Assembly: GCA_964016885.1 (NCBI GenBank)
Contig: OZ024762.1
Span: 5,394,001-5,458,000 of the forward strand
DNA from: Eledone cirrhosa
Lineage: Eukaryota
Length of the DNA: 64,000 bases
Direction of reading: 5' to 3'
The notes below the pieces were generated by a model, which saw only the letters and a list, made by a program, of their open reading frames with translations, did not search any database and was not told where the DNA came from. Of the stretch, positions 4,296 to 63,489 are shown one piece after another (positions within the stretch are counted from its first letter, which is position 1; each line of letters begins with the position of its first letter). The translations under genes were made by a program, and so were the position numbers.

Positions 4296-4434
4296 GTAAT
4301 AATTGTTTCTACGTTAGGCACAAGGCCAGCAATTACCCAGTGTATTACTGGTACTTTATTTTATCGACCCAGTACTGCCAATACTGGAATTGAACCATCA
4401 AGACAGTTCAGGTATGTCATACATACATCAATTC

Positions 4435-4504
4435 ATGTATTTTATCTGATGAGGACGTACTGAAAAAACAGCACAGTACCTCCGAAATATATATAATAAA
4501 ACAT
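4435..4504 (+). ncRNA. Type I hammerhead ribozyme motif in a Penelope-like non-coding insert
   Basis: TTTTAT-CTGATGA(4446)-stem II GGAcGTACTG/CAGTACcTCC-GAA-palindromic ATATATAT-A-ATAAAA; stem I pairs. Confidence 0.7.
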
Positions 4505-5133
4505 ATTTTGATTATGTGAACGTCTTCATTTATTAATATTTTGAATAATATTAATAACTCCAGAAAACTTCTTTGTAGAGTGCTTTTAATCTATTGTAAA
4601 TCTATATTTATTGAATAATCAATGAACCATATTAATCTTTGGTTATACACACACACACACATATATATATATATATATATATATATATATATATATATAT
4701 ATATATATATATATATATATACGTTAGTTGTGCAGCAGTGCTCAAGATTGCGTGTCAGAATTGCAGAAAAGCAGTGCAGGCGTGCCGGGGTTCGAGGTTG
4801 ACACGAAAATAATAAAAATATTAATGTGTAATCCGTTCTGAGATATTCTCAGCCCTCTTCTATTACATGCTTAACTGGTCATTGACCGAGATAGGAGGTA
4901 GTAGGAAGTAGCAGGGGGTAGAAGGGGCTATGGATGGGGTGGGAGGAAGGTAAGGAGGAAGGAATTGAAGAAGGAGAAGGTAGGGATACGCTGATATGTG
5001 TATATATATATATATATATAGAAAGAGAGAGAGAGAGGGGTAGAGAGGGAGAGATAAATAAATAAATATATATATATATATGTATATATATACACACGCA
5101 ACATAAATAACAATCAAATTGTGTTTAAGGCAT

Positions 5134-5191
5134 TTAATTGCTTACGATCGTTTCATACAGACATAGGTCTGGAATCATCGGAGCATATTAA
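5134..5191 (-). ncRNA. Degenerate hammerhead motif (CCGATGA core)
   Basis: Minus strand TGCT-CCGATGA-..CAGACctatGTCTG..-GAA-ACGATCGT-A-AGCA; core has a U-to-C change. Confidence 0.45.
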
Positions 5192-6419
5192 AGGTTAAAA
5201 CAAATAAATTCCTAATCATTAGAACATTCATTAATATACATTATATATATAAATAAATAAATAAATATATATATATATATATATATATATATATAGAGAG
5301 AGAGAGAGAGAGAGAGAGATCGACAGTGAGACAATGAGATAATAACAGAGATAAAGGCAGACCGACTGGGGAGGGGGGGATAATAACACAGCTTTTATTT
5401 CTTCCCAGTACATTTCTTTTCCCTTTACACCAATACTACCACCTCCATCATCATCACCATCACCATCACCACCATCATCACTACCATTACCACCTCCATC
5501 ATCATCACCATCACCACCATCATCACTACCATTACCACCTCCATCATCATCACCATCACCACCATCATCACTACCATTACCACCACTATCACCATCATCA
5601 CTCCTTTTTTCTTTTTCTCTCTCCCTTTCCTCCTTTCTCTTTTTCTCTCTCTACATTTCCTACTTTCTCTTTTCCTCTCTCTACCTCTCCCTTTATCCTC
5701 TCCTTACGCTTCTACTTCTCCCCATCTCCCGCCCTCTCTTTCTTTCTCCCTCCCTGTCTCCCTCTCCCTATCTCACTCTGCCTCACTTTCATTCTCTTTC
5801 TTTCCCTCTCTCGGTCTCTCTCTCTACCTACCTTCCTTCCTTTCTATCTATCTCCCTCTCCCTGCTTCCCTTTCTCTCCGCCTCTCTCCCTACCTCCTTG
5901 CCACTCTCTTTCCTACTCTCTCCCTCCCTCCTTGACACTCTCTTTCCTACTCTCTCCCTCCCTCCTTGTCACTCTCTTTCCTACTCTCTCCCTCCCTCCT
6001 TGACACTATCTTTCCTCCTCTCTCCCTCTCTGCATCACTCCCTCTCACACTTTCCGTTTTCATTTCCGCTATCGTCTGCCTTCAATGAAATATTTTCTTT
6101 CGCATCTTCACTAATGGAGTGAAACCGTCAATTAAAACAACAACAAGAACAAAAACTAAAACCTAACTACAGTCCCACCCCAAAAAACATCGCAGTGTGT
6201 CCTGCCTCTAGCAAGCGATTCTATATGATCGACCATATGTCACCTATTGGCCAATGTTTGCTGCAAATGTTCGATAAATTGTAAGCACGTAAGCGGCGGT
6301 TTCGAATTCAAAGACACCGAACACACGGCATCCTAAAATGTTTGTAATGGGGGGAAATGGTGGTGTTATTATGCGGGCGGGTGAATGTTCGCTCCATCTA
6401 CTTCCCAGCTCTTTCCCCC

Positions 6420-6930
6420 TTCACCACTACTATCACCACCGCAACCATCAACATCACCACTACCACCACAACCACTATCATCACCACCAGCATCATCATC
6501 ATCATCATCACCGCCACCACCATCATCATCACTATCATCATCACCACCACCACCACCACCATCCCACAACCATCAACATCACCACCACCACCACAACCAC
6601 TATCATCATCACCAGCATCATCATCATCATCAACATCATCACCACCACCACCATCATCATCACTATCATCATCACCACCACCACCACCATCATCCCACAA
6701 CCATCAACATCACCACCACCACAATCATCATCATCACCAGCATCATCATCATCATCATCATCATCACCAGCATCATCATCATCATCATCACCGCCACCAC
6801 CATCATCATCACTATCATCATCATCACCACCACCACCATCCCACAACCATCATCATCACCACCACCACCACCACAACCACTATCATCACCACCACCACCA
6901 TTATCATCACCATCAGCACCACCACCATAA
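6420..6930. repeat. (CAT/CAC)n compound microsatellite
   Basis: Direct reading; poly-H/T/P ORFs are artefacts. Confidence 0.9.
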
Positions 6931-60120: not shown

Positions 60121-60134
60121 ATACACATACACAA

Positions 60135-60400
60135 ATGGTCGTATGTTTCCCGGAACTCATCATACATAATGACTGATAAGTGGTCTGCCTATAATCAGCT
60201 TTCTAATCAGCAGTGTGAATCATCCGATTCCATTTCGTCTCTCCAAATAATTTCACTCAGTATAGAAATCACAGTAGACGGAAGTTGTAGAAACACCAAT
60301 TACACGCAGAACTTCTGATTTCGTTGCGAGAAGAGACTAAAGGAGTTTCTGATATATTGGATCATATAACACTATTAAACATATATTTATAAGCATGCAT
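60135..60400 (+). mobile_element. Possible Merlin/ISXO2-like transposase remnant
   Basis: IMTDKWSAYNQL and YTQN resemble the SD.W.AY / HTQ motifs. Confidence 0.35.
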
Positions 60401-61954
60401 GGTCCCGTAACTCTTGAGAGAGTCGTAGGGGCGCCGTATTGACAGAGCTTTTCTAGGGCACATTTTAAACCTGGCAGAGCCCATCTCCAAGTCTGAATAC
60501 AGTAGATTTCTTCCAGAGAACGACAGAGAGTGAGAGAATGGAAGTGAGAAAGAGATATAGAAGAAAATTCGACCCTAGTATTCGACTGGTATTTTTTTAT
60601 CGACATTGAACAGACGAAAAGCAAAGTTGACCTCGACAGGATTTGAACTCAGAGCGCAAAGAGTCGAAACAAATACCGTAAATCATTCTATCCGACATTT
60701 TAACCACTCTGCCAATTCGCGGCCTTTATATTTTTATACAATTATATTTTTAAAAAAAACAAAAAAAAAAACAGTATTAAATATAAATTTTAAAATAATT
60801 ACGATTTATTTCTGAAGAAAAATGAGTTTACAACCGCAATATGAAGGATCGACCTAGATTTATTTTTAAAAAATCGAGATGGTCATGAATGGATTGCCTT
60901 TGTTTATGTTTACTTGATTAGATATTAAACGATATATCTAAGTCACCTTATGTTAAGCTTTTAACAATCTTAAGAACGGAACAAAATCAAAGACATTATC
61001 GATATCTTAAACGTAATGGAACAGTGCTATGAAAATCGATAAATTTATATCAAAACCAATAATATAAAAAAGAAGATTTATTTGTAAATATTTATAAAAA
61101 TGCTGTGGAAACTTCCACAAGTGCCCCAATTAACTCAACTTCTAACAATTAATTTCGTTTTCTACGTTTTGATTGGTCGAAATATTTAACCAATCATATC
61201 CAAGCCGCTCATATTCAATTTGGAGATTTGAAAAAAAATAACAAATAACAAAACAAATTATTGACGTCGTCTTCTCACTGTTTTCACCTTTGGGATTTTA
61301 ATGACTTACTATACCTGTTTAATTAATAGCTTGTTTGTATTTGATTTATTCCAATGAAACCGAAAATGGCATCGAAAGAGAACGACAGGTATGTAGTATA
61401 TATATTTATTTGTATCAAACTGGTTATTCAATTCGAACGAACATTTTGTATATTTTTTTACGAACGAAGTTTTCAAATTTGAATATGTTGTGCCTTTGTT
61501 AGTTGGTGTTTTAGCCCCAGGTTTTCTCAAATCCATGTTTATGTATTGTATATACCTTCTTTCGCTTGTTATATATATACATATATGAGTATATCCATGT
61601 ATATACCTAGGAAGAAGAACCATTTTCCATTCAACGGACACACATATATATATAATGTGTGTGTAGTTGTATTTGCCACGATCAATTTTACTCGATCTTC
61701 CAATTAGTTTATTTGTAATGATTATTTTATACAAACATATAAATAATGGATGATTTTCATGAATAACAATATATATATATATATTAAACTAATATATATT
61801 ATCTGTATAAACTGATGTATATTATCATTGTACTGTATCGTTTTTACCCGTTGACTTTTCACATACACACACATATATGCATATCCACACACACACACAC
61901 ACACACATATATTAATTCAAAATATTAATAAATATAGACATTCATGTAATCAAA

Positions 61955-62024
61955 TATATTTTATTATATATATTTCGGAGGTATAGTGCTGTTTCCTCAG
62001 TACGTCCTCATCAGATAAAATATA
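61955..62024 (-). ncRNA. Type I hammerhead motif (same family as 4435-4504)
   Basis: 10-bp stem I TATATTTTAT/ATAAAATATA, CTGATGA, GGA../..TCC, GAA, ATATATAT, A; host insert 61910-62075 is the reverse complement of ~4383-4555. Confidence 0.72.
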
Positions 62025-63489
62025 TAAATTGATGTATGACATACCTCAACTGTGCTGATGGTTCAATTCCAGTCTTGGCACATATATATATATATATATA
62101 TATATATATATATATGTGTCTATAGAATTCCACTGTTGACTTCGCCATATTGACTTCCTTGTGCCAAATTCAACGCCATGCCAAACATATTTTAAGTGTG
62201 GCATGTCGTTAAAAATATTCTATCACCGTGATCACTAACTGGACTTTCACTATGCTGGGGACAACGCCTTTAGGATTTTCCTTTTTTTAGTCGATCTTAT
62301 TTAGCGACCCGAATACTTTTTTTTTTTCTTTTATTATATGTCTGGTACTTATTTTATCGATCTCTGTCCATCAACATATCGAGACACCACATAGGCAAAA
62401 ACGATGTAAGCGTAAAATCACAACCATCCATATATATATATATATATATATGCACACACACATATATACAGTGGTAGCCATGACTGGACCCCGAAACTTA
62501 AGATCGCGCATGCATGTGAACACACACACACACATGGCACCCTTGGGAAAAGAAAATTCAAAATATCTCGTCTGATTCATTGGATTCATGGCGATCAAGT
62601 TAGGGTTGAAGCTTGTCTATCGGAAAGGTGCGAAATATATATATATATTTTAAATGATATTCTACAGACGTACATTTTTGAATGGGTAGATTACAATTAT
62701 GTTGATGGAATTTTAAAGGAAAGGTTTTATCATATTTTCACTATTTGTAGTAGAAATTACGTCAATTACATTACATTCCTGTATAAAATCTATGACCAGT
62801 ATCCTGATTGATGTTTTATTCATTATCAACATATGATGAAAAATAAATCCAAAAATATTGCTTCCTTCAAACCCGTTAAGTAAAAAAAATTATTTCGCGA
62901 AAGTGTTTTGAAGACCATATTCGTACAAAAACCACAGAGAAAAACATGTCACCCCAGAGCAAAGCGAGTGTAACATTAAAACACGAGAACTCCGAGGGTC
63001 TCCCTCCCTCCCTCAGTTAACTAAAAAAGGACTAATTCTCAGTCTTTTTGAAGGCCACATTCGTTCAAGACATCAACAATTCTATAGAAAAACATAAAGA
63101 CGAGTGTGATTGAATAAATTAACCGAAGCATTAGTTCTTTTTCAAATTTCATCAACACGATCATCGTTATCTCCATCATGGAAAACGTATCTCTAAATGT
63201 TATTAATATACATTAAGCTATTTAGGCCTGGTTAGGGTTCTATCGTCGGTCTGTACCTGTTAATCACACACATATTTCCATCCACCTGTATTTTAAATTT
63301 ACTTGAGAAAAAAAAATACAATAAACGCATTCATTTGCGAAACTATTTTCTATAAGTGAAGCAGTCAGATAGAAAACACAGGCCTTTTGTATCAACGAAG
63401 AACTTGTCAATGATGGTTGATTGTCGTATAGATGGTGGTAGTGGTGGTGGTGACAGTTGTATGGTTATAAAAAAAGCAGGTAAAACCAC

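What the first reader, a model, noticed from the sequence alone, without database searches (positions are those of the whole stretch)
4380..62075. Dispersed small non-coding hammerhead-bearing inserts (retrozyme / Penelope-terminal-repeat-like) in (TA)n tracts
Seen: six intact type I hammerhead motifs in at least three sequence families (4435+/61955-; 31105+/56918+/56721-; 35521+). All share TATTTTAT-CTGATGA, a variable stem II, GAA, an 8-nt self-complementary stem III and an AUA triplet. Degenerate cores occur at 5134(-), 34461 (ATGAAGA-AGGGCTTATGCCC-GAAAC), and 3' halves near 7215 and 26030. Stem II and III sequences differ between families yet keep pairing, which looks like covariation. Most inserts are bordered by (TA)n. 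A Penelope GIY-YIG fragment at 14120-14670 shows that a candidate mobilising family exists in this genome. Inference: non-autonomous ribozyme retroelements targeting TA microsatellites, at roughly one intact motif per 10 kb here.
Basis: partly seen in the sequence, partly recalled or inferred. Interest (0 to 1): 0.7.

Follow-up and report, generated by a model that had tools for sequence, protein, structure and literature searches.

The report
Penelope retrotransposon end stubs with hammerheads
These scattered 160–270-base inserts are real hammerhead-ribozyme folds that most likely are cut-off ends of a known animal retrotransposon family (Hydra-clade Penelope-like elements), so largely ordinary, but their two fixed ends line up with a small doubled RNA stem signal that would explain where these elements start copying themselves.

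Summary
All six hammerheads are real: 6 found versus 0.03 per shuffle, 75 of 75 helix cells paired, 5 two-sided changes. They sit in five insertions of three families. They are not tandem retrozymes. Each family has two fixed 3' ends at (TA)n, and four head-to-head insertions carry one long and one short arm, the published Penelope-like element (PLE) 'tail' signature. The endonuclease fragment is Hydra-clade, a PLE clade already described with hammerheads and (TA)n targets. In 78 Hydra-type loci, 23 of 28 hammerhead-to-ORF junctions hold two copies of a 4-bp stem signal, GCTC…GAGCACT, and most measurable insertion ends fall just before one of them. The window's families carry a compensatory version, ACTC…GAGTGCT, and their short ends lie about 5–6 nt before it. 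Best reading: 5'-truncated PLE terminal stubs, likely unable to propagate themselves. Differences from the listed Hydra hammerheads: AUA cleavage triplet (65 of 65 locus motifs are GUH) and a long stem II with a pyrimidine mismatch. Not shown: a link of these families to an ORF, self-cleavage, expression. The twin-stem start signal was not found in the papers searched and is the one fresh, testable point.

The parts
4376..4648 (+). Family A, long-ended stub: hammerhead core 4446, cleavage A 4495, stem signal ACTC 4557 … GAGTGCT 4578, ends in (AC)n(AT)n
61909..62080 (-). Family A, short-ended stub (88% to the 4376 copy, same 5' start): core 62014, cleavage A 61965; ends 6 nt before the stem signal
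20139..20278 (.). Family A tail-only head-to-head insertion: short arm 20139-20164(-), long arm 20165-20278(+) with ACTC 20193 … GAGTGCT 20214; no hammerhead left
31049..31214 (+). Family B, short-ended stub between (TA)n runs: core 31113, cleavage A 31161; ends 5 nt before the stem signal
56676..56841 (-). Family B, short arm of a head-to-head insertion: core 56777, cleavage A 56729
56842..57114 (+). Family B, long arm of the same insertion: 20-nt centre, core 56926, cleavage A 56974, stem signal 57032 … GAGTGCT 57048, ends in (AT)n
35709..36026 (.). Family B tail-only head-to-head insertion split by a repeat at 35741-35925: short arm 35709-35740(-), long arm 35926-36026(+) with ACTC 35943 … GAGTGCT 35959
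35462..35630 (+). Family C, short arm of a head-to-head insertion: core 35529, cleavage A 35583
35300..35461 (-). Family C, long arm, 5'-truncated inside stem II (3' half of the hammerhead only), stem signal ACTC 35381 … GAGTGCT 35360
14157..14534 (+). 5'-truncated GIY-YIG endonuclease ORF end of Hydra-clade type (CxxC before E, N…CxH, no CCHH)
14576..14605 (+). Likely hammerhead variant with U3·A8 core (TTGAAAA), 42 nt after the endonuclease stop; GUA triplet, stem I only 3 bp; (TA)n follows at 14676
   Evidence: 0.4 such hits per shuffle; same core in Hydra locus L013
5100..5192 (-). Decayed Hydra-type hammerhead stub (core 5181 with U4C, GUA triplet), short-ended
26003..26075 (+). More decayed relative of the 5181 motif with a TTGAGCACTC trailer
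   Evidence: read by eye

Best explanation
The inserts carry intact type I hammerhead folds and two fixed 3' ends at (TA)n, and are most likely 5'-truncated terminal (pseudo-LTR) stubs of Hydra-clade Penelope-like retrotransposons, likely written into the genome by the element's own endonuclease and reverse transcriptase. Shown: the folds, the ends, four long-plus-short head-to-head insertions, and a stem signal about 5-6 nt past the short end. Inferred mechanism: (1) The protein nicks TA-rich DNA. (2) It binds a 4-bp stem signal (ACTC…GTNGAGTGCT here, GCTC…RTHGAGCACT in other Hydra elements) that occurs twice between hammerhead and start codon. (3) It starts cDNA a few bases upstream of either copy, giving the short or the long end. 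(4) cDNA usually stops after 30-270 nt, at the RNA 5' end or prematurely. Using both sites on the two target strands, or folding back, gives the inverted long-plus-short pairs. (5) The hammerhead is copied uncut. Its 2-nt stem III loop predicts cleavage only as a dimer or with protein help. Consequence (inferred): short stubs lack any start signal and long stubs keep one, so they are mostly dead by-products rather than retrozymes.
For: Short ends map -6 (A, twice) and -5 (B twice, C) from the stem signal, and -9 in one ambiguous case. Loose ends in other runs run into (TA)n at 57015-57027 (X1, X5, X6, X12) and at 57110-57114 (X5). All 4 head-to-head insertions seen have one long and one short arm, as in PMC8557442 Fig. 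2 legend. PMC11167929 ties the tail to two internal RT start sites and finds that hammerhead cleavage is not needed for insertion in vitro. The window's endonuclease fragment and its best hit P0001 show Hydra diagnostics. 52 of 78 Hydra-type loci have a hammerhead 69-369 nt after the endonuclease or upstream of the ORF. L018 and L053 share the window's stem I and are the best hits of a model built from the window motifs (E 0.003, 0.012). 23 of 28 hammerhead-ORF junctions have two stem signals, against 13 hits in 67 kb of ORF interior. 5 of 6 ends measurable against the element's own junction copy lie 1-9 nt before a signal (one of the five is a contig end). Of 19 locus hammerheads followed by a microsatellite none has two signals before it, and the 8 non-junction copies with one signal end at +93 to +124. 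The outer pair of the stem is G-C in 38 of 40 and U-A in 2 of 40 locus signals, and A-U in the window. In family B the majority base at 57035 restores ACTC.
Against: All 65 hammerheads in the Hydra loci, and the Hydra motifs listed in the PMC8557442 supplement, have C15.2-G16.2 and a GUH triplet, whereas all six window motifs have U15.2-A16.2 and AUA, so clade assignment rests on layout. The model hits to L018 and L053 are weak and driven by an AT-rich stem I. The window's endonuclease fragment belongs to a different family: its ACTC has no GAGT partner and its end (+71) fits neither class. L032 ends 24 nt past its signal. The upper part of the stem is no more stable than shuffles (mean z -0.05 and +0.74). 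Loci include near-duplicates, so the n's overstate independence. Both A copies start at the same base, and B1 starts at the B2/B3 inversion point, which also fits a short dedicated transcript. Absence of variants from the 13 core positions is not significant (about 1.8 expected from the rows shown; 32 rows hidden).
Confidence: 0.7

Rival explanations
1. A, B and C are SINE-like non-autonomous derivatives of a PLE: a short master copy elsewhere keeps both stem signals and a promoter and is copied in trans by a Hydra-type protein.
For: Shared 5' starts (both A copies begin at the same base; B1 begins at the B2/B3 inversion point). Family B is very abundant (6541 contigs laid in X1). No ORF is attached in 64 kb. 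The hammerheads diverge from the known autonomous Hydra ones.
Against: Many B copies run further upstream: 744 reads of X12 and 157 contigs of X1 overrun the stretch, and X12 depth at the 3' edge is only 11-17, so its overruns are mostly 5'. Tail-only and half-hammerhead copies show variable 5' truncation. No window copy has both signals.
Confidence: 0.15
2. They are PLE terminal stubs, but from another clade (Neptune, Nematis or Naiad) that also targets (TA)n and uses a similar signal.
For: The AUA triplet and U15.2-A16.2 are absent from 65 of 65 Hydra-locus motifs. PMC8557442 names (TA)n preference for Naiads and links the linker finger to such targeting in Neptune.
Against: The stem signal, its conserved G-T two to three bases before GAG, its spacing from the hammerhead and stem I match Hydra loci. 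Naiads lack canonical hammerheads. Other clades were not fetched, so the signal's clade specificity is untested.
Confidence: 0.09
3. They are dispersed monomers of non-LTR retrozymes, spread through self-cleaved, circularised RNA.
For: Type I hammerheads with palindromic stem III, unit size and low GC resemble retrozyme monomers (PMC7229834 passages). Monomers of retrozyme families are evenly dispersed in Xenopus (bioRxiv 10.64898/2026.07.22.740005).
Against: No head-to-tail unit in the window. Among the joints shown for B only two 'goes back' joints of 23 and 48 nt (6 reads each) appear, none of unit length. Ends are fixed away from the cleavage site, and the inverted long-plus-short pairs are not a retrozyme feature in the passages read.
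Confidence: 0.05
4. The motifs are chance folds in AT-rich microsatellite DNA.
For: Stems I and III are almost all A/U; the monomer hammerhead fold is 6-8 kcal/mol above the minimum-energy fold.
Against: 6 versus 0.03 per shuffle; 0 of 500 shuffles reach the pairing; repeated family structure.
Confidence: 0.01

Closest known systems
Hydra clade of Penelope-like elements (Craig et al. 2021, PMC8557442; includes Hydra-1_Obim)
   Same: C-terminal GIY-YIG without CCHH (window fragment), sense-strand type I hammerhead in the terminal region, (TA)n targets, 5' truncation, inverted 5'-truncated partner, one-sided tail; same stem-signal layout as the 78 Hydra-type loci.
   Different: AUA triplet with U15.2-A16.2 instead of GUH with C15.2-G16.2. 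Stem II of 30-36 nt with a pyrimidine mismatch at its fourth position. Signal reads ACTC…GAGTGCT. Tail about 85-95 nt against the 30-40 bp given for PLEs in that paper. No ORF linked to A, B or C here.
Minimal PLE hammerheads (Cervera & de la Peña 2014, PMC4209133)
   Same: Dispersed single motifs attributed to truncated PLEs, opposite-strand pairs 100-700 bp apart, long helix II, palindromic helix III suited to dimers, U3-A8 core variant (seen at 14576).
   Different: G10.1-C11.1 is kept only in family A (A-U in B, G·U in C). No bulged base after position 9 in the fold used here. AUA is not mentioned in the parts read.
Poseidon element PAc of Anolis (Frangieh et al. 2024, PMC11167929)
   Same: Two internal RT start sites downstream of the hammerhead define the tail; AT-rich targets; uncut RNA is the template.
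   Different: There the start sites lie inside the ORF in one AC-rich stem loop. In Hydra-type loci they lie before the ATG, each ahead of its own copy of a repeated signal (genomic inference only).
Non-LTR retrozymes (PMC7229834; bioRxiv 10.64898/2026.07.22.740005)
   Same: Small non-coding units with a type I hammerhead, PLE-related.
   Different: Defined by tandem units with a hammerhead in each and by circular RNA; no tandem unit here and RNA untested.

Membership tests
Type I hammerhead ribozyme | CUGANGA and GAAA boxes with U16.1-H17 | tested here: met
   6 of 6 motifs
Type I hammerhead ribozyme | Three helices that keep pairing across variants | tested here: met
   75 of 75 cells, 5 two-sided changes, 0 of 500 shuffles; three families only; stem III loop is 2 nt, so only a dimer gives a full helix
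Type I hammerhead ribozyme | Self-cleavage after H17 | not testable with these tools
   needs in vitro transcription or RNA end data
Penelope-like element insertion | Inverted 5'-truncated copy at the 5' end | tested here: met
   four head-to-head insertions
Penelope-like element insertion | Tail present at one end only (two 3' ends) | tested here: met
   each inversion has one long and one short arm; both ends seen in other runs; tail is longer than the published 30-40 bp
Penelope-like element insertion | RT plus GIY-YIG ORF joined to the terminal repeat | tested here: inconclusive
   none joined to A, B or C in the window; no genome held; a separate family's endonuclease end has a likely hammerhead 42 nt downstream
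Penelope-like element insertion | Retained intron in the terminal repeat or 5' UTR | tested here: inconclusive
   donor-like GGTATGT upstream of the hammerhead in A and B, not C; the acceptor candidate turned out to be the stem signal; no RNA
Hydra clade | CxxC and CxH around conserved E and N, no CCHH in the endonuclease | tested here: met
   window fragment 14157-14534; (applies to that fragment only)
Hydra clade | RWK, DKT and CxCx5C motifs | tested here: inconclusive
   present in homologs (P0001 has RWR, DKT, CxCx5C; alignment majority RWK); that part is missing from the window
Hydra clade | Insertion into (TA)n | tested here: met
Hydra clade | Hammerhead like listed Hydra motifs (C15.2-G16.2, GUH); descriptive, not stated as defining in the paper | tested here: not met
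   6 of 6 window motifs AUA versus 65 of 65 GUH in loci and the supplement table
Non-LTR retrozyme | Head-to-tail tandem units each with a hammerhead | tested here: not met
   none in the window; no unit-length back joint among the joints shown for B; genome-wide untested
Non-LTR retrozyme | Monomeric linear and circular RNA | not testable with these tools
   no RNA data could be laid

The most novel reading that the evidence does not exclude
Hydra-clade PLEs carry a doubled cis signal (4-bp stem RCTC/GAGY, a G-T-H bulge and a conserved 3' trailer) between hammerhead and start codon. Each copy sets one reverse-transcription start about 5 nt upstream. This one rule would generate the PLE 'tail', the long-plus-short inverted insertions, the need for partial tandems to copy a whole element, and the flood of dead terminal stubs. 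The window's families are an AUA-cleaving branch with a compensatory form of the signal.
Probability: 0.55. Interest if true: 0.6.

Novelty: new variant of a known kind. Interest (0 to 1): 0.38.

Why it matters
As a catalogue entry it matters little: dispersed PLE hammerhead stubs and (TA)n-targeting Hydra elements are published. The point of value is the doubled stem signal. PLE transposition is poorly understood, and only one element has been reconstituted according to PMC11167929. A 7-11-base signal that predicts both insertion ends across diverged elements turns the origin of the PLE tail into a direct mutagenesis test. It would also define a minimal RNA tag for loading cargo on a compact (about 700 aa) RT-endonuclease, and it says which genomic stubs can be remobilised. 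The AUA hammerheads with a long mismatch-containing stem II add a variant that the Rfam scans here did not report.

Tried and rejected
No genome is held for this window, so no genome-wide scan was possible. Pattern scans for the AUA-type motif found 0 stretches in metagenome, viral and prokaryotic genome contigs. PLE protein scans of viral contigs found no relatives. The run search listed 11 holders in 8 studies: no RNA holder listed, so expression and cleavage are open. Read-end piles at 56947 and 57096 in X12 were set aside as RAD library artefacts (an AATT site and the 150-nt read length; my inference). I first read ACTCCAG as a splice acceptor and dropped this when it proved to be the 5' arm of the stem signal. 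I first called the endonuclease Neptune-like and corrected it to Hydra. I briefly read the long end as the first ORF codons; the Hydra loci place the ATG after the second signal. A fixed 5' boundary was weakened. One search used a mis-registered structure (72% paired, no support) and is superseded. An extended upper stem in the signal is not supported. Of 14 rows, 4 are cross-family alignments that merely fade, 1 more is the same kind (L053 to L018), and 3 are contig ends away from any signal; these 8 were left out of the 5-of-6 count. In one search, L001(342), L016 and L022 are junction copies with internal TA; L013, L001(169), L046 and L049 were not counted as short ends. A wider protein search gave 3706 relatives of the endonuclease fragment, none above 54% identity among the 150 listed. 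Earlier-findings look-ups returned nothing. A paper search on AUA triplets returned 0, so that AUA is cleavable is recalled (NUH rule).

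
Full report
OBSERVATION. The window is microsatellite-rich eukaryotic DNA (38.7% GC, 205 tandem-repeat rows) with decayed LINE-type RT fragments. Its short repeats resemble cephalopod SINEs; that is recalled and was not tested. No genome was held. 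A strict type I hammerhead descriptor finds exactly the six motifs named (cores 4446+, 31113+, 35529+, 56926+, 56777-, 62014-) against 0.03 per shuffle in 100 shuffles. All have TATTTTAT-CTGATGA, GAAA, an 8-nt palindromic or wobble-palindromic stem III and AUA. Stem II starts with 3 pairs, a C·C (A, B) or C·U (C) mismatch, and 3 more pairs. On the 5 distinct motifs 75 of 75 cells pair, 5 of 15 pairs change on both sides, and 0 of 500 shuffles reach that (one search was my mis-registered attempt). Loose ends show a sister family of B whose stem II swaps A-U for G-C and C-G for U-A at aligned positions (read by eye). Forcing stem III within a monomer costs 2-3 kcal/mol, while the palindromes form self-duplexes of -2.2 to -10.5 kcal/mol; this predicts dimer-dependent cleavage. 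Of the degenerate sites, 5181(-) and 26030 are decayed members of one GUA-type family; 34461 and 7215 are unconfirmed.

ANATOMY. The six motifs belong to five insertions in three families, and two more insertions are tail-only. Each family has two 3' ends: a short one 50-57 nt past the cleavage base and a long one 132-153 nt past it, both running into (TA)n or similar. Four insertions are head-to-head (56676-57114, 35300-35630, 20139-20278, 35709-36026), and each has one long and one short arm. Long arms contain ACTC-N-GTNGAGTGCT. Short ends stop 6, 6, 5, 5 and 5 nt before its first base, and 9 in one ambiguous case. Laying four runs on the B long arm gave 6541 contigs in X1, 26 in X5, 59 in X6 and 29747 reads in X12. 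Loose ends run into (TA)n at 57015-57027 and, in X5, at 57110-57114. Depth falls towards the 5' side but many records overrun it, so the 5' end is not fixed. No loose end among those shown starts at the cleavage site (352 rows hidden). No tandem unit is present in the window.

THE PARTNER. The ORF fragment at 14157-14534 is 41% identical to the C-terminus of P0001, a 719-aa RT-GIY-YIG protein, and scores iE 1.2e-31 with a profile of 28 of its 120 listed relatives. Its motifs fit the Hydra clade as defined in PMC8557442 (section 11): no CCHH, CxxC and CxH around E and N, hammerheads present, and nearly all families in (TA)n. [quoted passage not shown] Forty-two bases after the window's stop codon lies a likely U3·A8 hammerhead variant (0.4 such hits per shuffle). 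That core variant is reported in PMC4209133 and occurs in locus L013. This fragment is a different family from A, B and C.

RELATED LOCI. A metagenome scan kept 78 loci of 554 confirmed Hydra-type stretches. 52 of 78 have a hammerhead 69-369 nt after the endonuclease or upstream of the ORF. L018 and L053 have the window's stem I and are the best hits of a covariance model built from the window motifs (E 0.003 and 0.012). Where a hammerhead is followed by the ORF start, 23 of 28 junctions hold two copies of RCTC…GAGCACT (first arm +39 to +58, second +102 to +135, ATG +142 to +186); 3 hold one and 2 none by the strict rule; background is 13 hits in 67 kb (near-duplicates included). In 40 signals from 20 loci the T two bases before GAG and CT at the trailer's end are invariant (as are CTC and GAG, which the search itself required); the outer pair is G-C in 38 and U-A in 2, and A-U in the window. 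The inner part folds no better than shuffles. Ends measured against an element's own junction copy lie at -1, -3, -4 from signal 1 and -9, -4 from signal 2 (the last a contig end); L032 is an exception at +24. Of 19 locus hammerheads followed by a microsatellite, none has two signals before it, 8 non-junction copies with one signal end at +93 to +124, and 4 clear signal-less copies end at +32 to +45. By eye, the published consensus Hydra-1_Ajap begins at the first signal and Hydra-1_Crog just before the second. All 65 locus hammerheads have C15.2-G16.2 (GUA 51, GUC 8, GUU 6); all six in the window have U15.2-A16.2 and AUA.

MECHANISM. Shown: folds, family structure, two ends, asymmetrical inversions, and the position of ends relative to the signal. 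From the literature: PLE insertions are heavily 5'-truncated with an inverted partner and a one-sided tail (PMC8557442). A Poseidon protein cuts both strands of AT-rich DNA, starts reverse transcription at two internal sites that bound the tail, and does not need hammerhead cleavage; its hammerhead cleaves only with protein (PMC11167929). Inferred: the Hydra-type protein binds a stem signal and starts about 5 nt upstream. A long end needs a template with signal 2, which only a terminal-repeat-to-ORF junction (or a master copy that keeps it) provides. Short stubs have no signal and long stubs one, so the window's inserts are likely end products. The signal could instead act as DNA for the endonuclease; its variable 8-19-nt spacer favours RNA but does not decide it.

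COMPARISON AND NOVELTY. It works like a PLE terminal stub and passes the structural PLE tests. Membership of A, B and C in the Hydra clade is likely but not proven, because no ORF is attached and the triplet differs. It fails the tandem test for non-LTR retrozymes within the window. Dispersed single and opposite-strand PLE hammerheads were described in 2014 (PMC4209133). The doubled signal is not mentioned in what I read, and searches for it found nothing relevant: (Penelope-like, Hydra clade, tail, hairpin; 'hairpin' occurs 0 times in PMC8557442), (Penelope, GAGCAC, retroelement; four listings, not opened, with unrelated titles). The library lacks most subscription papers, and Repbase and Dfam annotations were not searchable.

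PAPERS SEEN. PMC4209133: parts 1-2 of 4. PMC11167929: parts 1-2 of 4 and passages; supplements not opened. PMC8557442: passages, sections 6 and 11, supplement search and parts 2, 52, 53 of 59. bioRxiv 10.64898/2026.07.22.740005: parts 1-3 of 5; its supplements were not seen and may list related families. PMC7229834: passages. Lünse et al. 2017 on dimeric PLE hammerheads and the NUH rule: recalled only.

VERDICT. Observation confirmed; interpretation partly supported. A new variant of a known kind, interest 0.38. The most novel reading, a doubled start signal that explains the PLE tail, has probability about 0.55 and would deserve about 0.6.

Noticed in passing
window 20325-20400(+), 35190-35262(+), 34600-34680(-): Three near-identical 75-nt inserts with fixed ends in (TA)n that fit a hammerhead-like fold with a U4A core (CAGAAGA), a 5-bp stem III and a CUU triplet; all three share the odd bases and two lie next to A or C stubs. 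Identity and strand unresolved.
   Followed up: partly
window 56953-57071 (loose ends): A sister family of B, abundant in X12 and present in X1, X5 and X6, with a different stem II showing compensatory changes and a deletion in the tail.
   Followed up: partly
window 4411, 31067, 56880 (+); 62045, 56823 (-): Splice-donor-like GGTATGT 31-46 nt upstream of the hammerhead core in families A and B; may mark the PLE 5' UTR intron; no acceptor identified.
   Followed up: partly
window 56834-56869: The centre of the B inversion is a perfect hairpin whose bases at 56858 and 56861 differ from the family majority, as expected from fold-back at a near-palindrome.
   Followed up: partly
window 34300-34330: A TACTAG…CCCGG…CTCGGG stretch resembling a Helitron-type non-autonomous element end (recalled resemblance).
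   Followed up: no
window 19836-20008, 28923-29089, 41169-41335, 43530-43700, 58095-58264: Five 96-98% identical copies of a repeat, at least four with a tRNA-like segment by Rfam: probably a young tRNA-derived SINE.
   Followed up: no
window 16402-16585, 29590-29741, 35741-35925, 42580-42987, 44955-45165, 49818-50006: A second, about 185-nt SINE-like family; one copy splits the B tail-only inversion.
   Followed up: no
window 1933-3300(+), 7843-8523(-), 26273-27599(-): Decayed LINE-type reverse transcriptase fragments (Pfam RVT_1).
   Followed up: no
window 42-1155, 18890-19298, 36488-37386: Minisatellites with 40-, 34-, 39- and 43-bp units; no hammerhead in them by the descriptors used.
   Followed up: partly
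L001 135-169, L010, L046, L055: Additional hammerheads of a shorter style 240-410 nt upstream of Hydra ORFs, probably ends of other PLE families inserted nearby.
   Followed up: no
window 22074-22286(+), 34949-35050(+): Weak hits of the Hydra profile (iE 0.07 and 0.003); no hammerhead seen after the first.
   Followed up: partly
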